Positions 1 to 6,839 of a DNA stretch of 64,000 nt are shown in pieces. The stretch comes from a virus (taxonomy: Duplodnaviria > Heunggongvirae > Uroviricota > Caudoviricetes). Both the position numbers and the translations under genes were made by a program. The first letter of the stretch is position 1. Each line of letters opens with the position of its first letter. Location: IMG/VR virus record IMGVR_UViG_2740892230_000016; one strand, written 5' to 3'. The notes under the pieces are model-generated. The model was given only the letters and a program-made list of their open reading frames with translations. It searched no databases and had not been told where the DNA came from.

Positions 1-2293
1 TACTGCAACGAAATTGAAAACCAAAAGGTCGCTTCAAGTTGACCTCCAAAGTGATAACGCCATCGACTTTGATGGTTCATCAAATGCTCTTCTGGGCATA
101 AAAGGTATTTTACCAATTACTCATGGGGGATTAGGTGCATCCAGCGTCTCTGGAGGGCGTACTAATCTTGGATTAGGTGTTGCGGACATCCCCCAATTTA
201 AGGGTATCAACCTTGTTAACTCAACAGACGCTGATTTAGCGGCGTCAGGGATTGTAAGTGGTTATCTGAATAATTCAGCTGGGGTACAGAGAAGTCGTTT
301 TAGAATTTATTCAGAGATCAGGAGTGACAACCGCTCATGGCTGACGTTACATCTACAATCTGATACCAACACCAATAAATATGCCGGATTAGACATTGAC
401 GGTAATTTTCTGATTACCGGTGATAGCAAATGCCGAGCATTAGAACCAACTGATGTAGCGTTAACAAGAAAAAATATTGATGTTTACAGCAAAGCCGAAG
501 TAGACCTTAAAAAAGGGATGAAATTCACCAGAGTCAATGCTCCTTCTGGAGCTGAAGAGGGTAAATTCTATCCTGTAGTCATCAAGAGATCTGCAACGAG
601 CAATGGTGAACTTGCTTCTCGGGTTATTATTTCCACTGCGCCGCGCCAAGCTGCACATCGCATGAACAACTGCGAATTCAATGGTTTTGTGATGCCTGCT
701 GGTTGGAGTGACAGAGGGCGGTACGCATACGGGATGTTCTGGCAATATCAGGATGCAGAACGGGCGATTCATTCTATTGCGATGAGCAATAAAGACGATG
801 AAGTTAGCTCAGTTTTTTATATTGAAGGCGGAGCATTTCCAGTATGCGTTCTTGTGGAGGAGGGGCTTTCTGTTGTTGTCCCTACAACGGATTATATTGT
901 TGGACAAACCACATACAAATGGGGGGCAACCAACCCTAAAGCTGAATGTATAGCTGCCGACATAATTATTGATTTTAGCAATGGTCGTGGTTTCTATAGC
1001 TCTGGAAACCTCAATGGTAATGCTGCAACAGCAACTAAATTACAGACCGCCAGAACAATCAACGGAGTAACCTTCGATGGCACTACTGATATTTCGTTGA
1101 CACCAGAGAACATTGGCGCGCTGTCACTATCCGGAGGCACATTATTAGGAGGTCTGACAGCTCCTTTACTTACCACTAAAAGCGATCTTATTTTTAGTAG
1201 CCATACAAGCCGTCATATCCGCTTTACATATACGAAAAATGACGGCACAACACTAACTGATGGGTACATATTTAAAGATGGTGTCGATAACCCTAACAGA
1301 CGACCAGGTATCCGGATAAATTGTGCTGCGCCGAATAAAGAAACCGGCAATGGTACTAATTCAGGTGATTGGATATTCGGTGAAGATGGCATTTTTACCA
1401 TGCCGGGTGGCACTGTTCTTCGGGGAGGAATCAATAGCAATGGCGTGCCGCAAAGTGAGTATAAACATGACATGCTCACGTCAGTTGTTGACGATGCAAA
1501 AATGTATCTGCGACGTTTCCGCTCCAGCACAGGTGCAAGCATATGGCATGAAACAATAGAGAATAACGTTTATCGCTTATGCACAGGAACAACTGACGCT
1601 CAGGAAGAGTTAGTCTTGAGGACTGGTTCCTATGCGAAATTCGCTGGCGAGATTATTTCCAAATCGGCGAATGGTCNNNNNNNNNNTTTAACTGTTTATG
1701 GTTCTGTTGGCCTGGGTACTGCAAATGCTCTTGGTGGTAACTCTATCGTCCTTGGCGATAATGATACTGGTTTTAAACAGAATGGTGATGGCATTCTTGA
1801 TGTTTACGCTAATAGTCAGAGAGTATTCCGCTTTAAGAATGATGCAGCTTTTTCTTTAAAAAAATTGCTGGTCGGAGATAGTAAAACTTTTTCATTATCA
1901 AGTTCAAACACGTCCACTAAGAACGTAACCTTTAATCTATGGGGTGCCTCTACTCGTCCTGTTGTAGCTGAATTAGGTGATGATTCAGGATGGCATTTTT
2001 ATAGTCAGAGAAATACTGATAACAGTATAACATTTGCTGTAAATGGTCAGGTGTCCCCCTCTAATTATAGTAATTTTGACTCGCGCTACGCATTAAAGAC
2101 GGCTTGTGTGACCAGCGTCAGACTTGGGGCATATAAAACTCATACCATGCAGAAAGGCACGATGTTTGAAACTGCTGGCTATGTCATTACAGGGCTTGGG
2201 ATTATTGGTGAAGTTGATGGTGACGACCCAGCAAGATTGAGGCCTTTACAGTATTGCATTAATGGAACTTGGTATACAGCAGCCACAGCATGA
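1..2293 (+). CDS. Tail fibre protein, variable C-terminal part (5' partial, interrupted by N-gap 1677..1686)
   Basis: ORF 14..2293 stays open to the window start (frame reads TATKLKTKRSLQ from position 2). Contains the collar repeat GNAATATKLQTARTINGVTFDGT. C-terminus NYSNFDSRYALKTACVTSV...QYCINGTWYTAA is shared with the opposite-strand fibre. Confidence 0.8.
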   Translation, partial: TATKLKTKRSLQVDLQSDNAIDFDGSSNALLGIKGILPITHGGLGASSVSGGRTNLGLGVADIPQFKGINLVNSTDADLAASGIVSGYLNNSAGVQRSRFRIYSEIRSDNRSWLTLHLQSDTNTNKYAGLDIDGNFLITGDSKCRALEPTDVALTRKNIDVYSKAEVDLKKGMKFTRVNAPSGAEEGKFYPVVIKRSATSNGELASRVIISTAPRQAAHRMNNCEFNGFVMPAGWSDRGRYAYGMFWQYQDAERAIHSIAMSNKDDEVSSVFYIEGGAFPVCVLVEEGLSVVVPTTDYIVGQTTYKWGATNPKAECIAADIIIDFSNGRGFYSSGNLNGNAATATKLQTARTINGVTFDGTTDISLTPENIGALSLSGGTLLGGLTAPLLTTKSDLIFSSHTSRHIRFTYTKNDGTTLTDGYIFKDGVDNPNRRPGIRINCAAPNKETGNGTNSGDWIFGEDGIFTMPGGTVLRGGINSNGVPQSEYKHDMLTSVVDDAKMYLRRFRSSTGASIWHETIENNVYRLCTGTTDAQEELVLRTGSYAKFAGEIISKSANGXXXXLTVYGSVGLGTANALGGNSIVLGDNDTGFKQNGDGILDVYANSQRVFRFKNDAAFSLKKLLVGDSKTFSLSSSNTSTKNVTFNLWGASTRPVVAELGDDSGWHFYSQRNTDNSITFAVNGQVSPSNYSNFDSRYALKTACVTSVRLGAYKTHTMQKGTMFETAGYVITGLGIIGEVDGDDPARLRPLQYCINGTWYTAATA
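8..21. repeat. Left copy of inverted repeat ACGAAATTGAAAAC (encodes TKLKT) at the fibre constant/variable junction
   Basis: Exact 14-bp match to the reverse complement of 5328..5341; flanking bases are partly conserved outward, suggesting the repeat extends beyond the window. Confidence 0.6.
11..38. other. Candidate cix-like crossover site (left)
   Basis: AAATTGAAAACC-AA-AAGGTCGCTTCA: the left half-site resembles the Hin/Gin/Cin consensus half-site TTnTnnAAAACC; the right half is degenerate. Confidence 0.4.
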
Positions 2294-2299
2294 TTATTA

Positions 2300-2857
2300 A
2301 TGGATCAAACAATGATTAATTTTAAAAAGTTCACATCCTACACCCCAGATGAAGATAAGTCAGAGCTTGTTGAAGCTGGAGTTGTATTTTTACGTGATGA
2401 AAACGGTAATGACTGGTATGAATGTCAGAAATTTTTTCATGAGAACACGATAAAGATAGTTTATGACAGCGATAATATTGTTGTGAGTATTTCAAACGAT
2501 GTTTCAACACTCTGGCCAGTGGGGGCATCTGTAGCAGAAATAGAAATCCTGCCTGAGGGAGTAGATATTAACGGGAACTGGATGTTTGACGGAAAAAATG
2601 TGGTTGAAAGAGTAAGAACCGCAGATGAGTTAAAAGCTATGGCGGAATCAAGACGCACTGAGCTACTTAACAACGCACGTCAACAACTCGTGATTAGCCA
2701 GACAAAATTACTACGCGGCAGAATATTATCTGAAGATGAACAGTCTTCTCTTGACGCCTGGCTGGACTATATTGATGCAGTTAATGCATTAGATTTCAAC
2801 ACAATAACAGATAAAGCCAGTTTCAATGCGATCGTCTGGCCTACTGAGCCAGGTTAA
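2300..2857 (+). CDS. Tail fibre assembly protein (U-like)
   Basis: Immediately downstream of the fibre gene; 185 aa; shares the ENGNDWYECQK motif with the inverted paralogue 2892..3455. Confidence 0.75.
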   Translation: MDQTMINFKKFTSYTPDEDKSELVEAGVVFLRDENGNDWYECQKFFHENTIKIVYDSDNIVVSISNDVSTLWPVGASVAEIEILPEGVDINGNWMFDGKNVVERVRTADELKAMAESRRTELLNNARQQLVISQTKLLRGRILSEDEQSSLDAWLDYIDAVNALDFNTITDKASFNAIVWPTEPG

Positions 2858-2891
2858 AAGTGAAGGCCCGATAAATCGGGCCTTCACTTCA

Positions 2892-3455
2892 CTACGGTTC
2901 TTCTGGCCATTCTGGTTTAGCTGTATCTACGCGATAAACCAACACGCTATAACGCTCCCATGCTTCCAGTTTAGCTCGTTCCTCATCTGTTGCCATATTC
3001 AATTTAACCGCCCGCTCAAGAGTTACAATAACTGATTCGGCATGTGAAAGTAAGGCAGCCTTTTTTGATTCAGCTTGCTGTTGTAACTCCGTATCAGAAT
3101 ATATGCGTTTAACAACAGAGTTGTCTCTAAACACCCAACCACCGTTGATATCTACATCTTCAGGTAAACTATCCACTTCTGCTACAGATAATCCTATGGG
3201 CCAAAGGGTTGAGGCGTCATCCGTAATGCTGACAACGATATTGTTGCTATCATACGCAATTACCTTTGTACATTCCGAAAATAACTTTTGACATTCATAC
3301 CAGTCGTTACCATTTTCATCCAACAGGAATAAAACTCCTGCATCAACAAGCTCTCTTTTATCTTCACCAGGCGTATATGGTGCGAAATTTTTAAAGTTAT
3401 TCATATGCTCTCTCATTATACTGATGCTGCTGTGTACCATGTACCGTTGATACAA
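2892..3455 (-). CDS. Tail fibre assembly protein, alternative copy (U'-like)
   Basis: 187 aa paralogue of 2300..2857 on the opposite strand; convergent arrangement typical of invertible fibre segments. Confidence 0.75.
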   Translation of the reverse strand: MYQRYMVHSSISIMREHMNNFKNFAPYTPGEDKRELVDAGVLFLLDENGNDWYECQKLFSECTKVIAYDSNNIVVSITDDASTLWPIGLSVAEVDSLPEDVDINGGWVFRDNSVVKRIYSDTELQQQAESKKAALLSHAESVIVTLERAVKLNMATDEERAKLEAWERYSVLVYRVDTAKPEWPEEP

Positions 3456-5425
3456 TATTGAACCGGTCGATAATAAATCCCGCCGATATTGTCGGCTGAA
3501 TTACTTCCTGTTTCTTGAACAATAATACCTGTCATAACCAGTCCGCTTCCTAGATTCTGAGTCCAGGAAACACCATTGCTTGATGGTTTATAACTGGCAG
3601 CAGATCCCATTCTTACGCTTGTCACACAAGCCGTTTTTAATGTGTAGCGCGAGTCAAAATTACTATAGTTAGCTGGAAGTATTTGCCCGCCGCACTGGAA
3701 GTTACCACTGCTATCAAGAAATGCTTGGCCATCTGTACCATTTGATGTTCTTGAGTTGTTAATCATGTAAAAGCCGAATTGACTATTACCAAGACCACCA
3801 ATAAAGAACTTTCTGTCAGCATGGTCTTGTCTTAATAATGCCTGGGCGGAACTGGTTGATACCTTATTAAGACCAAAAATAACATTTTGATCTCGCATAC
3901 TAATCCAAGAACCTGAGCTGCTATTAACAGAAAATCTGTTTGCATATACCCATGCATTGGTTCTTATATCGCCAGTTACATTGAGTCCATTACCGATTGA
4001 AACAGCCCCGTTAGCGTTGTTAATGGTAAGCGGTCTTAAACTATTCCATGTTCCAAGATTGTCACCCGAGGCGGTCAACATGAAGTATGTGCTTGAACCA
4101 TCGTTTCGGATAAAGAATCCATAGTTGCCATAGGCAATGCGCAGACCATTCGCCGATTTGGAAATAATCTCGCCAGCAGCAGTTAATCCGCCAGTTAACG
4201 CTCCTCCAGATAGTGGTAAAGCTCCGACATCAGCCGCAGTAGGTTTGTTTTTAGTGTTATACGCTCTGCGCCATCCTGGTGAATAACTTGTGCCATTAGA
4301 CACATAGATAAATTCAGCATTAGTGAGTGCGCCAGATACACTTGTCGTCGTTGCCGTTGTTATACGAATGGTAAAATAACTCGTGCTACTGCTATTATTA
4401 AATACCTCTATAACTGCGCCAGCCAGTGGAATAATGCCGCATCCTGTTTCGCTGTCTGGTATGGATGCACTATTTGCATACGCCCAGGCACAACGCGCTA
4501 TCCATACCTTTGCATTAAAAGCACCATTATCTCGTAGCAGAGTCACTAATTGCTCTGTTGTTATTGATGCTCCATTATCACCTGTTTCAAGCCAACCAGT
4601 AGGAGATGCCGGGCAACCAATATTTGCCGGTGACAGAGAAATATTAGCCGTTCCGTCAAATGAAACCCCATTAATGGTGCGTGCTGTTTGCAGTTTTGTG
4701 GCTGTAGCTGCATTGCCGGTAGTGCTCTGATTGCCTGTTTTATTCACGCCCGGCAGGTCGATGTTTGCGGTGCCATTAAATGAAACACCACCAATAGTTC
4801 TTGCCGTTTGTAATTTCGTTGCAGACGCCGCGTTTCCGGTTGTGTTCTGGTTGCCCGTGGTATTTACACCAGGGATGGAATCCTTCGATGTGTAGACCTG
4901 CGCCCACTCTGACCAACTGGCTGTATCAGTATCTCGTCGCGAACGTACATGTACAGGTGCATGAGCGCCACTTGTACCGCTCCAACCTATGAACAACTCA
5001 CCTTCACCAACTGCCGTTGCGCCCTTAAGATGAAGCACATTCCCGTAAGCAGAAGGATAGCCGTTGTTGTACGCCTCATACATTTGCAATCCAGTAGCAG
5101 CACCTTGTGTTGTACCGGTGAGCGCAGTAACACGCCCTCTGGACGTAATTGTTGGTATCGAAATGTCCACAGAACCATCAAATTTAACACCGTTGATGTT
5201 TCTTGCCGTCGCAAGTTTCGTCGCGGTAGCAGCATTCCCCGTGGTGTTCTGGTTACCTGTTGTATTTACACCTGGAAGATTGATATTGGCCGAGCCATCA
5301 AATGCCACACCGCCAATCGAGCGTGCTGTTTTCAATTTCGTCGCGGTGTCGGCATTCCCTGCCAGCGCCCCGGTGATCCCGCCGTTGAAAGTCTGGCGTG
5401 AACTCCATGTGTTAGCCGTGCTCAA
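3416..5425 (-). CDS. Alternative tail fibre variable part (Sv'-like)
   Basis: 669 aa with repeated GNAATATKL(Q/A)TAR collar motifs and a C-terminus matching the + strand fibre. The reading frame stays open upstream through 5456..5483, so the TTG start in the ORF track is probably not the true N-terminus. Confidence 0.75.
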   Translation of the reverse strand: MSTANTWSSRQTFNGGITGALAGNADTATKLKTARSIGGVAFDGSANINLPGVNTTGNQNTTGNAATATKLATARNINGVKFDGSVDISIPTITSRGRVTALTGTTQGAATGLQMYEAYNNGYPSAYGNVLHLKGATAVGEGELFIGWSGTSGAHAPVHVRSRRDTDTASWSEWAQVYTSKDSIPGVNTTGNQNTTGNAASATKLQTARTIGGVSFNGTANIDLPGVNKTGNQSTTGNAATATKLQTARTINGVSFDGTANISLSPANIGCPASPTGWLETGDNGASITTEQLVTLLRDNGAFNAKVWIARCAWAYANSASIPDSETGCGIIPLAGAVIEVFNNSSSTSYFTIRITTATTTSVSGALTNAEFIYVSNGTSYSPGWRRAYNTKNKPTAADVGALPLSGGALTGGLTAAGEIISKSANGLRIAYGNYGFFIRNDGSSTYFMLTASGDNLGTWNSLRPLTINNANGAVSIGNGLNVTGDIRTNAWVYANRFSVNSSSGSWISMRDQNVIFGLNKVSTSSAQALLRQDHADRKFFIGGLGNSQFGFYMINNSRTSNGTDGQAFLDSSGNFQCGGQILPANYSNFDSRYTLKTACVTSVRMGSAASYKPSSNGVSWTQNLGSGLVMTGIIVQETGSNSADNIGGIYYRPVQYCINGTWYTAASV
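5328..5341. repeat. Right copy of inverted repeat (reverse complement of 8..21)
   Basis: GTTTTCAATTTCGT on the + strand, encoding TATKLKT in the minus-strand fibre. Confidence 0.6.
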
Positions 5426-5455
5426 CAGGGGGATCTTTTCACCGCTGGTACCGAG

Positions 5456-5483
5456 TTCTCTTAAACCAAGGTTTAGGATTGAA
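5456..5483. other. hix/cix-like near-palindromic recombination site overlapping the 3' end of the invertase gene
   Basis: TTCTCTTAAACC-AA-GGTTTAGGATTG compared with recalled hixL TTCTTGAAAACC-AA-GGTTTTTGATAA; the invertase stop codon (5473..5475) lies inside it. Confidence 0.45.
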
Positions 5484-6033
5484 ATGATGACGCCGGAAAC
5501 TTCTTATAAAGCGTGGAAACAGCCACATCATAGATGATTGCAACCTGCTTACGGGGGATGCCCTTCTCGAGCAATCGCCGCATTTGCTGCCATGTTTCTT
5601 CTTGGTATTTAGGCCGACGTCCACCTATACGACCTTCTGCGCGAGCTGCATCAAGTCCAGCGCGTGTACGTTCAACGATAAGCTCACGTTCCATTTCTGC
5701 CAGCGCCCCCATTACGTGAAAGAAAAAGCGCCCCATTGGTGTACTGGTGTCGATGGAGTCAGTGAGACTCCGGAAGTTAATGCCTCTGTCACGCAGCTCT
5801 TCCACCAGCACAACTAAGTGACGCATGCTGCGCCCAAGACGATCTAACTTCCATACGACTAGGGTGTCACCTCTGGAAAGCATACGGAGAACCTTTTTTA
5901 ACCCAGGGCGTTCAGCCTTTTTGCCGCTCGCCTTGTCCTCAAAAATTAGCTCACATCCTGCGCTTTCAAGAGCGTTTCGTTGTAAAGCAGTGTTTTGTTC
6001 ATTTGTTGATACGCGTACATAGCCTATTAGCAT
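5473..6033 (-). CDS. cin: Serine DNA invertase (Cin/Hin/Gin/Pin family)
   Basis: 186 aa; N-terminal MLIGYVRVSTNEQ with the catalytic Ser of the resolvase/invertase fold; C-terminal HTH; directly adjacent to the invertible fibre segment. Confidence 0.9.
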   Translation of the reverse strand: MLIGYVRVSTNEQNTALQRNALESAGCELIFEDKASGKKAERPGLKKVLRMLSRGDTLVVWKLDRLGRSMRHLVVLVEELRDRGINFRSLTDSIDTSTPMGRFFFHVMGALAEMERELIVERTRAGLDAARAEGRIGGRRPKYQEETWQQMRRLLEKGIPRKQVAIIYDVAVSTLYKKFPASSFQS

Positions 6034-6160
6034 ATTTTCTGCTCACTATCGTTATTTATAGCAAGCTGCGGATTTTAATTAACAAAAACCAGTATGTGTG
6101 GAAATCACAAAGTACATACCGTTTCCCAATGATATTTAATTCACTATTAAGGAAATAGTT

Positions 6161-6442
6161 ATGTGTGATTTCACAATAATGCTCCTCTCCATCCTTGGCG
6201 GGGTGCATTCGTTTCTGAATGGGGTTCGTGAAAAACGTTACGAAGCGTCATGCAGGCAATTGATGGCCGAGTGTATTGCTGCCGTACTTGCAGGCTTTAT
6301 AGGCATGTATTTCGCGGAATATAAGGGTATGGATGAAAGTCTTCAGAATTGCGTGACTATTATTTGCAGCATCAATAACAGGCTCATTCTTGAAAAGTTA
6401 CAAAGGATTATCGATTCGCACCTCAATAGAAATGCCTCTTAA
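6161..6442 (+). CDS. Small hydrophobic protein upstream of the holin genes
   Basis: 93 aa with hydrophobic stretches; co-oriented with the lyd/darA operon. Confidence 0.35.
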   Translation: MCDFTIMLLSILGGVHSFLNGVREKRYEASCRQLMAECIAAVLAGFIGMYFAEYKGMDESLQNCVTIICSINNRLILEKLQRIIDSHLNRNAS

Positions 6443-6509
6443 GCAACAAATGACCGGTTGAGAAGTTACTTTGCATACCATTACCTCCTGACAACGTAGG
6501 AGGGAACTT

Positions 6510-6839
6510 GTGCTTGACACACAGGAATTAGCTCCAGTTGCTATTGCGCTCCTGCTTTCAGTAATTGGTGGGATAGGCACGTTCCTGATGGATGTCCGAG
6601 ACGGTCGCCAGTCTGGCAATTTGTTAGGATTGGTTACGGAGATCTTTGTTGCAGTGACAGCTGGCGCGGTGGCGTACCTATTGGGGCAACACGAGGGCTG
6701 GGAGTTATCAATTACGTACTTAATGGTAACGATAGCCAGCAATAACGGTCATGAGGTGATTTCAGGGATGAAACGAGTGAATATCGATAGCATTCTGAAT
6801 GTTCTTACAAGTTTGGTGAAAAAGGGAGGCGGGAAATGA
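6510..6839 (+). CDS. lydA: Holin LydA-like
   Basis: 109 aa membrane protein; size and synteny match the first gene of the P1 darA operon; 4-bp overlap with the next gene. Confidence 0.55.
   Translation: MLDTQELAPVAIALLLSVIGGIGTFLMDVRDGRQSGNLLGLVTEIFVAVTAGAVAYLLGQHEGWELSITYLMVTIASNNGHEVISGMKRVNIDSILNVLTSLVKKGGGK

What the first reader, a model, noticed from the sequence alone, without database searches (positions are those of the whole stretch)
1..6033. Invertible tail-fibre C-segment with Cin invertase; three candidate crossover sites, one overlapping the invertase stop codon
Two fibre variable regions and two assembly genes are arranged convergently, and a serine invertase is adjacent. A 14-bp inverted repeat (8..21 and 5328..5341) encodes the shared TATKLKT junction peptide. 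A near-palindromic hix-like site lies at 5456..5483, inside the 3' end of the invertase gene, and the alternative fibre frame stays open through it. Which pair of sites actually recombines, and whether the alternative fibre can be expressed by read-through from the invertase gene, cannot be settled from sequence alone.
Basis: partly seen in the sequence, partly recalled or inferred. Interest (0 to 1): 0.4.

Follow-up and report, generated by a model that had tools for sequence, protein, structure and literature searches.

The report
Phage P1 tail-fibre inversion switch
This is the well-known phage P1 switch, in which the Cin enzyme flips a DNA segment so the phage makes a different tail-fibre tip; only one of the three proposed flip sites is real, and its partner lies just off the left edge of the window.

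Summary
Window 1..6033 is the invertible C segment and cin gene of a P1-family phage-plasmid. It sits at the start of a draft scaffold.

- **Cin:** the protein is 100% identical to P1 Cin.
- **Real site:** 5456..5481 is letter-for-letter P1 cixL. The crossover is at 5468/5469 and the cin stop codon at 5473..5475. This overlap is annotated in the P1 record.
- **Enhancer:** the P1 inversion enhancer inside cin (5944..6015) is identical.
- **The 14-bp repeat:** it exists, but it is not a crossover site. It is the inner tip of a 152-bp inverted repeat cut by the window edge.
- **Partner site:** in 99.9%-identical relatives, cixR lies about 105-130 bp left of position 1.
- **Mapping:** sibling plasmids in opposite orientations place the exchange in 5349..5472. 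That includes the cix core and excludes the 14-mer.
- **Read-through:** cin and the silent fibre are in different frames, so no fusion protein can form.

One thing was not expected. A second, internal 191-bp inverted repeat (3987..4177) has its partner hidden by the N gap at 1677..1686. It also recombines in nature. All four fibre combinations occur among otherwise identical plasmids. This is most likely homologous recombination; Cin involvement is not excluded.

Verdict: already known; low interest.

The parts
1..21 (+). Inner tip of the left arm of the 152-bp cix-proximal inverted repeat. The rest of the arm, cixR and the constant part of gene S lie off the window to the left.
   Evidence: Alignment with MH445380, P1 and MH422554. 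Relatives carry cixR, TTATCCAATACC TT GGTTTAAGAGAA, 105-130 bp upstream.
22..1642 (+). Module D: proximal part of the fibre variable region, joined to the constant part of S in this orientation.
   Evidence: 99.9% identical to the same module in CP057856, MH445380 and others. Its frame is continuous with the S frame of relatives.
1643..1686 (+). First 34 bp of the left copy of the internal 191-bp inverted repeat, then a 10-N scaffold gap that stands for the missing 157 bp.
   Evidence: the repeat finder pair I3. Relatives have the full 191 bp here.
1687..2293 (+). Module B: distal fibre tip, including the stop codon.
   Evidence: 100% identical to relatives. It always sits next to U.
2300..2857 (+). 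U, the tail-fibre assembly chaperone for tip B.
   Evidence: Pfam Caudo_TAP, E = 1.8e-21. Occupies the P1 U position.
2858..2889 (.). GC-rich hairpin between the convergent U and U' genes; likely a two-way transcription stop.
   Evidence: 15-bp perfect inverted repeat I14. Folding energy -31.7 kcal/mol, z = -7.8. The simple terminator scan did not call it.
2892..3416 (-). U', the assembly chaperone for tip C.
   Evidence: Pfam Caudo_TAP, E = 6.3e-29. Annotated this way in MH422554 and CP057856.
3416..3986 (-). Module C: the alternative distal fibre tip.
   Evidence: Module mapping in relatives.
3987..4177 (-). Right copy of the internal 191-bp inverted repeat. It encodes the C-terminal part of a Gp34_trimer-type trimerisation domain and is the substrate of the inner inversion.
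   Evidence: Pfam PF21446 on residues corresponding to 4022..4330. Two inverted copies in relatives. Clean reciprocal exchanges within it in three sibling plasmid pairs.
4088..4113 (.). Weak Din-like sequence, TGTGCTTGAACC AT CGTTTCGGATAA, inside the internal repeat. Probably a coding coincidence.
   Evidence: Second-best matrix score in the 64 kb (8.4, against 26.6 for cixL). The same nucleotides, coding FIRNDGSST, occur in the homologous tail-fibre block of other viral contigs; only 3 of the 80 loci examined carry a second inverted copy and few have a Cin homologue in the stretch held.
4178..5327 (-). Module A: proximal part of the silent fibre variable region. It contains three roughly 113-nt fibre repeats.
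   Evidence: Module mapping. Direct repeat family D1.
5328..5479 (-). Right arm of the 152-bp cix-proximal inverted repeat. It encodes the fibre residues shared by both variants (LGLRELGTSGEK...TATKLKT).
5456..5481 (.). cixL, the Cin crossover site. The central dinucleotide is at 5468..5469.
   Evidence: Identical to the published cixL and to the annotated P1 cixL and crossover. Top matrix score in the window.
5473..6033 (-). cin, the serine DNA invertase. Its stop codon (5473..5475) lies in the outer half of cixL.
   Evidence: Resolvase and HTH_7 domains. 186 aa, 100% identical to P1 Cin.
5944..6015 (.). Recombinational enhancer within the 5' part of cin.
   Evidence: Coordinates transferred from the P1 annotation 'enhancer of Cin-mediated C-segment inversion'. 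The sequence is 100% identical to P1.
6072..6155 (-). cin promoter region (P1cin and P2cin of the P1 annotation). It includes a strong Cin half-site-like sequence, TTAACAAAAACC, at 6079..6090.
   Evidence: Identical to P1. Third-best matrix hit in the window.

Best explanation
The region is the C-segment/cin host-range switch of a P1-family phage-plasmid.

How it works:
- Cin is a serine invertase. It is helped by the enhancer inside its own gene, which in P1 is bound by the host protein Fis.
- Cin exchanges strands at the central AA of cixL (5468/5469) and of cixR. cixR sits in gene S, about 105-130 bp left of window position 1.
- Flipping the roughly 5.6-kb segment joins the constant N-terminal part of S to one of two variable parts, each with its own chaperone (U or U').
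- In the orientation shown, Sc-D-B plus U is expressed and A-C plus U' is silent.

The three proposed sites:
- The 14-bp 'junction' repeat is only the point where the two arms of the 152-bp repeat stop being alike. That point is a recurrent ATKL(K/Q)T fibre motif, and homology to P1 also ends there.
- The overlap of cixL with the cin stop codon is the normal P1 arrangement. The stop lies in the outer half-site, which does not move on inversion.

A second inverted repeat of 191 bp lies inside the segment. It lets the inner block (B-U-U'-C) flip independently, most probably by general homologous recombination. The family can therefore make four fibres: D-B, D-C, A-B and A-C.

Shown here: sequence identities, site positions, the natural isomers and the mapped crossover intervals. 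Inferred: Cin activity in this particular element, Fis dependence, and the mechanism of the inner inversion.
For: - Cin is 100% identical to P1 Cin, with Resolvase and HTH_7 domains.
- cixL, the enhancer and the cin promoters are identical to annotated P1.
- Gene order cin-lydC-lydA-lydB-hdf-darA matches P1.
- cixR is present upstream in relatives that are 99.9% identical over window 1..1676.
- Among PLSDB plasmids the whole segment occurs in both orientations relative to cin, with matches ending at 5479.
- RHB13-C02 and C03 (CP057851, CP057845) have 0 differences in the flanks compared (about 24 kb) but opposite segment orientation.
- In the RHB02 pair (NZ_CP058059, NZ_CP099360), SNPs at window-equivalent 5342/5345/5348 move with the modules. 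Outer half-site differences stay with the flanks in the RHB13 pair.
- Together these bracket the exchange to 5349..5472.
- Inner inversion: D-IR-B occurs in 9 plasmids and D-IR-C in 14.
- All four isomers were verified by module mapping.
- Clean reciprocal exchanges lie inside the 191-bp repeat in three sibling pairs.
Against: - cixR and the constant part of S are not in the window, so the partner site is inferred from relatives.
- No reads are available, so inversion in this particular isolate is not shown.
- Comparative mapping only narrows the crossover to 124 bp, not to the base.
- The window is a draft scaffold with a gap in one repeat copy, so the D-B linkage rests on the scaffolder. The same arrangement does exist in 9 complete plasmids.
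Confidence: 0.93

Rival explanations
1. The 14-bp repeats (8..21 and 5328..5341) are themselves the crossover sites, alone or in combination with the site at 5456..5483.
For: The exact 14-mer is present in inverted orientation at both places, and near matches are more common than chance. It coincides with the end of homology between the arms and with the end of homology to P1.
Against: - It does not resemble Din-family sites: matrix scores are -1.1 and -8.0 against 26.6 to 30.0 for cixL and cixR.
- The repeat continues outward for about 130 more bp to true cix sites in relatives.
- In the RHB02 sibling pair, SNPs just cix-ward of the 14-mer move with the modules, so the exchange was outside the 14-mer.
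- The motif is a recurrent fibre repeat; another copy with 2 mismatches lies at 4806..4819.
Confidence: 0.02
2. The internal 191-bp repeat holds a second pair of Cin substrates, at 4088..4113 and its partner. The locus would then be a Min-like multi-inversion system with four programmed states.
For: - The second-best Din-matrix hit in 64 kb falls inside the 191-bp repeat. It has a good half-site (TTATCCGAAACG) and a palindromic AT core.
- The third-best hit is in the cin promoter, so the top three all lie in this locus.
- SNP linkage in three sibling pairs is compatible with one crossover in repeat positions 40..110, which contains the site at 65..90.
- Inner and outer inversions are both seen among colonies carrying otherwise identical plasmids.
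Against: - The score of 8.4 is below every known functional site (14 or more). It is not an outlier from the background tail, where the next hits score 8.2, 7.8 and 6.8.
- The second half-site is poor.
- The same nucleotides code the conserved FIRNDGSST motif in the homologous tail-fibre block of other viral contigs, and only 3 of the 80 loci examined carry a second inverted copy.
- A perfect 191-bp repeat is an adequate substrate for RecA-type recombination.
- The SNP intervals are equally compatible with random crossover positions.
Confidence: 0.18
3. The D-B and A-C linkage in the window is a scaffolding or assembly artefact at the 191-bp repeat. The real genome would have D-C and A-B, as in MH422554 and MH445380.
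For: The N gap lies exactly in one repeat copy. The window has nine 10-N gaps, so it is a short-read scaffold. The two closest phage records have the other linkage.
Against: - The other repeat copy is contiguous, with C on one side and A on the other. That agrees with the scaffold's D-B join.
- Nine complete plasmids have exactly this arrangement, four of them colinear with the whole 1..6600 at 98.7-99.9%.
Confidence: 0.1

Closest known systems
Phage P1 C segment with the Cin invertase and cixL/cixR (Hiestand-Nauer and Iida 1983; P1 genome record AF234172)
   Same: - The Cin protein is identical.
- cixL, the enhancer and the cin promoters are identical.
- In close relatives the partner site is identical to the published cixR.
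- cixL overlaps the cin stop codon in the same way.
- The layout is the same: Sc | Sv-U / U'-Sv' | cin, followed by lydC, lydA, lydB, hdf and darA.
   Different: - The cargo differs. Homology to P1 stops at 5325, right after the TATKLKT motif.
- The arms of the terminal inverted repeat are 152 bp instead of P1's roughly 0.6 kb. The P1 figure is from my own knowledge of the literature.
- The variable parts are longer two-module fibres. They share an internal 191-bp inverted repeat that P1 lacks.
Phage Mu G segment with Gin and gix
   Same: Same family of serine invertases. Both use 26-bp sites with a 2-bp core, an enhancer inside the invertase gene, and alternative S/U and S'/U' fibre sets.
   Different: gix has a GA core and different half-sites. 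The position of gin relative to its segment was not examined here.
Plasmid p15B Min multiple-inversion system (Sandmeier, Iida and Arber)
   Same: It sits on a P1-related plasmid backbone. It offers more than two fibre C-termini through nested or overlapping inversions. Mosaic fibre modules are joined at conserved motifs.
   Different: - Min uses six bona fide mix sites recognised by the invertase.
- Here only two strong sites exist. The extra inversion uses a 191-bp homologous repeat that contains only a weak site-like sequence.
Invertase-driven tail-fibre switching in E. coli prophages, for example EC958 Phi1, Phi2 and Phi4 (PMC4134206)
   Same: The 26-bp crossover sites lie at the outer ends of longer imperfect inverted repeats inside the fibre gene.
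   Different: Those are different phages, invertases and fibre cargo.

Membership tests
P1 Cin/cix (Din-family serine invertase switch) | A small serine recombinase with an N-terminal resolvase catalytic domain and a C-terminal HTH | tested here: met
   PF00239, E = 4.6e-51, and PF02796, E = 1.9e-18. 186 of 186 aa are identical to P1 Cin.
P1 Cin/cix (Din-family serine invertase switch) | A 26-bp crossover site with two 12-bp half-sites around a 2-bp core, next to the invertase gene | tested here: met
   5456..5481 equals the published cixL and the annotated P1 cixL and crossover.
P1 Cin/cix (Din-family serine invertase switch) | A second site in inverted orientation at the other end of the segment, inside the fibre gene | tested here: inconclusive
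   It is not in the window, because the scaffold starts 21 bp before the inner end of the repeat. It is present as exact cixR in relatives that are 99.9% identical over window 1..1676.
P1 Cin/cix (Din-family serine invertase switch) | A cis-acting recombinational enhancer (Fis-bound in P1) in the 5' part of cin | tested here: met
   Window 5944..6015 is 100% identical to the enhancer annotated in P1. Fis binding itself cannot be tested with these tools.
P1 Cin/cix (Din-family serine invertase switch) | The segment is found in both orientations, with junctions at the sites | tested here: met
   Both orientations occur in near-identical plasmids. The exchange is bracketed to 5349..5472. This was not tested in the source isolate itself.
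P1 Cin/cix (Din-family serine invertase switch) | The cargo is two alternative fibre C-termini, each with its own chaperone, convergently arranged | tested here: met
   plus annotations.
p15B Min-type multiple inversion system | More than two invertase crossover sites defining overlapping invertible segments | tested here: not met
   The matrix scan finds only cixL (and cixR in relatives) at functional strength. The internal candidate scores 8.4, is shared with homologous tail-fibre blocks elsewhere of which only 3 of 80 have an inverted partner, and is probably coding sequence.

The most novel reading that the evidence does not exclude
In this branch of the P1 family the switch has two tiers. 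Besides the cixL/cixR flip, the inner block (tip B-U / U'-tip C) flips at a 191-bp repeat that encodes a trimerisation domain, giving four fibres instead of two. The most novel version is that this inner flip is also programmed. Cin would act on the weak site at 4088..4113, with its palindromic AT core, making a minimal Min-like shufflon.
Probability: 0.18. Interest if true: 0.5.

Novelty: already known. Interest (0 to 1): 0.2.

Why it matters
For the finding as stated, little is at stake. It re-identifies the textbook P1 host-range switch, and the site overlapping the invertase stop codon is the annotated cixL.

Two practical points follow.
- Inverted repeats at invertible segments break short-read assemblies exactly here. 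This window has a contig end and an N gap for that reason, and such breaks can mimic short 'junction repeats'.
- Some natural P1-family phage-plasmids, which carry resistance genes and are used for transduction, can present four fibre combinations rather than two. This matters for predicting or engineering their host range.

Tried and rejected
- **14-mer as a crossover site:** rejected on matrix score, on the extension of homology in relatives, and on SNP linkage.
- **Translational read-through from cin into the silent fibre:** rejected by frame analysis.
- **A terminator between cin and the silent fibre:** none found, so transcriptional read-through stays open.
- **A crossover site straddling the outer edge of the 191-bp repeat:** nothing site-like appeared in the matrix scan.
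- **Conservation test of the internal candidate site:** the same nucleotides occur in homologous tail-fibre blocks elsewhere, only 3 of 80 with an inverted partner, so no extra constraint is detectable.
- **Literature:** no held paper describes a nested inversion in P1-like plasmids, or the accessions MH422554 and MH445380 in this context. The P1 genome paper is not held. My recollection of a pseudo-cix site in the cin promoter could therefore not be checked.
- **Not run:** E. coli chromosome searches, RNA family searches and structure prediction. The question was settled without them.
Full report
**What is in the window**

ORF listing and sequence show two convergent units.
- A fibre reading frame on the + strand from the window edge to 2293, followed by a 185-aa gene at 2300..2857.
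- On the - strand, a fibre frame at 3416..5482 followed by a 174-aa gene at 2892..3416.
- Then a 186-aa gene at 5473..6033 (-).

Pfam assigns Resolvase plus HTH_7 to the last gene. It assigns Caudo_TAP (tail-fibre assembly protein) to both small genes. It finds a Gp34_trimer fibre domain in the minus-strand fibre. Downstream genes follow the P1 order lydC, lydA, lydB, hdf, darA.

The window is a draft scaffold with nine runs of 10 N. The constant part of the fibre gene and gene R are absent from it.

**Identity with P1**

- Megablast against phage records finds P1 at 98.8% over 5325..6600.
- Alignment with the richly annotated P1 record AF234172 shows 7 nucleotide differences in cin. The 5' part of cin containing the enhancer, the upstream promoter region and the cix site show none.
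- The Cin protein is 186/186 identical to P1 Cin.
- Transferring P1 annotation by the constant offset gives cixL around 5459..5478, the crossover at 5468/5469, cin at 5473..6033, and the enhancer of C-segment inversion at 5944..6015.
- The 26-mer 5456..5481, TTCTCTTAAACC AA GGTTTAGGATTG, is letter-for-letter the cixL listed in Table 3 of PMC3241671.

So the 'hix-like site overlapping the invertase stop codon' is real, correctly placed, and is the known P1 arrangement. The stop codon (5473..5475) sits in the outer half-site, which stays with cin when the segment flips.

**The 14-bp repeat**

The exact 14-mer is at 8..21 and 5328..5341 and encodes TATKLKT in both arms. It is not an isolated repeat.
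- Window 1..21 already matches 5328..5348 at 18 of 21 positions (pair I4).
- MH445380 is 99.9% identical to window 1..1676. In it, the sequence upstream of window position 1 continues the repeat for another 131 bp and ends in TTATCCAATACC TT GGTTTAAGAGAA. That is exactly the published cixR.
- The same holds in CP057856, CP057851, CP057845, NZ_CP058059 and others.

The 14-mer is therefore the inner tip of a 152-bp inverted repeat whose left arm is cut by the scaffold end. The real partner site lies about 105-130 bp off the window.

The repeat ends at a recurrent fibre motif, (N/D)xATKL(K/Q)T. That motif also occurs at 4806..4819 and within the 113-nt repeats of module A. Homology to P1 also ends there (5325). 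It is a mosaic joint, not a recombinase site.

**Which sites recombine**

I built a half-site weight matrix from 13 published Din-family sites and scanned the window.
- cixL scores 26.6, and cixR in relatives scores 30.0.
- The best 26-mers overlapping the two 14-mers score -1.1 and -8.0.
- The background has mean -29.7 and sd 9.8.

Natural isomers give a direct test.
- In PLSDB the whole segment is found in both orientations relative to cin, with matches breaking at 5479.
- CP057851 and CP057845 come from colonies C02 and C03 of one pooled pig sample. They have no differences in the flanks compared, about 24 kb, but carry the segment in opposite orientations.
- In the E. fergusonii pair NZ_CP058059 and NZ_CP099360 (both 94,718 bp), three SNPs equivalent to window 5342, 5345 and 5348 (left arm 7, 4, 1) stay attached to modules A or D when the segment flips.
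- The differences between the outer half-sites stay with cin or Sc in the RHB13 pair.
- Together these bracket the exchange to 5349..5472. That interval contains the cix core and excludes the 14-mer.

**Read-through**

- On the minus strand cin ends ...FQS* and then reads TLV* in its own frame.
- The silent fibre frame is a different frame. It is open for only 13 codons upstream of the crossover before a stop. No Cin-fibre fusion is possible.
- The first canonical start codon in the fibre frame is the TTG at 5425.
- No terminator-like structure lies between cin and the silent fibre. cin transcripts may therefore extend into it, but any product would lack the constant N-terminal part of S. Whether such transcripts exist is untested.

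**The unexpected part: an internal 191-bp inverted repeat**

The N gap at 1677..1686 follows a 34-bp perfect inverted match to 4144..4177 (pair I3). Relatives show that the full repeat is 191 bp (window 3987..4177), and that the gap replaces the remaining 157 bp. The repeat encodes AGEIISKSANG...AVSIGN, the C-terminal part of the Gp34_trimer domain.

The repeat divides each variable region into a proximal module and a distal tip.
- Proximal modules: D (22..1642) and A (4178..5327).
- Distal tips: B (1687..2293, with U) and C (3416..3986, with U').

The window has D-B and A-C. MH422554 and MH445380 have A-B and D-C. Junction-spanning queries find D-repeat-B in 9 complete plasmids and D-repeat-C in 14.

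Module mapping verifies all four isomers.

| Isomer (Sc side / cin side) | Records |
|---|---|
| Sc-D-B / A-C-cin | CP057856, CP134893 |
| Sc-A-C / D-B-cin | NZ_CP058059, NZ_CP122828 |
| Sc-D-C / A-B-cin | CP057851, NZ_CP099360, NZ_CP123268 |
| Sc-A-B / D-C-cin | CP057845, MH422554, NZ_CP122809 |

Three sibling pairs differ by a clean reciprocal inversion of the inner block.
- RHB13-C01 versus C02: 0 differences in about 25 kb of flanks.
- ETEC1732 versus ETEC1734.
- The RHB02 pair.

SNPs inside the repeat place the exchange at repeat positions 1..110, 1..164 and 40..191 respectively.

**Mechanism of the inner inversion**

The second-best matrix hit in the whole 64 kb is 4088..4113, TGTGCTTGAACC AT CGTTTCGGATAA, with a score of 8.4. 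It lies inside this repeat at repeat positions 65..90. The third-best hit (8.2) is in the cin promoter. That is suggestive of Cin involvement, but four points argue against it.
- The score is below every functional site (14 or more).
- It is not separated from the background tail.
- One half-site is poor.
- Eighty homologous blocks were fetched from viral contigs. Only three of the 80 loci carry a second, inverted copy of the block, and few have a Cin homologue in the stretch held. The identical or nearly identical 26-mer turned up 24 times among them, where it simply codes FIRNDGSST.

I therefore favour general homologous recombination across a perfect 191-bp repeat (about 0.75), with Cin action unexcluded (about 0.18).

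**Comparison and verdict**

The system is P1 Cin/cix itself, with different and longer fibre cargo and shorter terminal repeats. It resembles p15B Min in offering more than two fibres, but it fails the Min criterion of multiple bona fide crossover sites. Its specific puzzle, three candidate sites and possible read-through, dissolves.
- One site is cixL.
- The 14-bp pair is an edge-truncated repeat.
- The partner site is off-window.
- Frames forbid a fusion protein.

Novelty: already known. The four-state behaviour of this sub-family is a modest side observation worth a bench test.

Noticed in passing
window 1677..1686, plus 45221..45230, 50868..50877, 51800..51809, 60886..60895, 61142..61151, 61555..61564, 62105..62114 and 62254..62263: There are nine runs of exactly 10 N, so the window is a scaffold of short-read contigs. 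The first gap hides 157 bp of the internal repeat, and the listed ORF 14..2293 is read straight across it.
   Followed up: partly
window 3987..4177 and 1643..1676 plus the gap; L004-L012: An internal 191-bp inverted repeat lets the inner block B-U-U'-C flip independently. All four fibre combinations exist among complete plasmids. Three colonies from one pooled sample (RHB13-C01, C02, C03) carry three isomers of an otherwise identical 95,217-bp plasmid.
   Followed up: yes
window 4088..4113: The second-best Din-family site score in the 64 kb lies here, with a palindromic AT core, inside the internal repeat. It codes FIRNDGSST and also occurs in homologous fibre blocks elsewhere, most without an inverted partner, so it is probably coincidental.
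   Followed up: yes
window 6079..6104: A strong Cin half-site-like sequence, TTAACAAAAACC, lies between the -10 and -35 boxes of the P1cin promoter as annotated in P1. It is the third-best matrix hit. From memory, P1 literature mentions a pseudo-cix site in the cin promoter, but I could not verify this in the held papers.
   Followed up: partly
L007 11860..11890 and L008 7105..7136 (NZ_CP058059 and NZ_CP099360): In these E. fergusonii plasmids the outer half of cixL reads CAATCCAATACC instead of CAATCCTAAACC, which resembles cixR. The cin stop codon is destroyed, and Cin is annotated as 190 aa, ending at the next TAA in the inner half-site. This looks like the localized conversion at crossover sites described for P1.
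   Followed up: partly
window 1, 4, 7 versus 5348, 5345, 5342: The two arms of the cix-proximal repeat differ at three positions in the window and in the RHB02 plasmids. They are identical in the RHB13 plasmids, which suggests gene conversion between the arms.
   Followed up: partly
L011 8251..10023 and L012 1..1085 (ETEC1732 and ETEC1734 plasmids): The constant part of the fibre gene appears to be cut short next to an IS91-family transposase, so the fibre gene is probably defective. The two plasmids nevertheless differ by the inner inversion.
   Followed up: no
window 4641..4753, 4761..4873 and 5163..5275: There are three roughly 113-nt direct repeats (69-72% identity). They encode the recurring GNAATATKLQTARTINGVSFDG fibre motif, which explains why ATKL(K/Q)T-coding 14-mers recur.
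   Followed up: partly
window 2858..2889: A perfect 15-bp stem hairpin (-31.7 kcal/mol, z = -7.8) lies between the convergent U and U' genes. It is probably a two-way terminator, although the simple terminator scan did not call it.
   Followed up: partly
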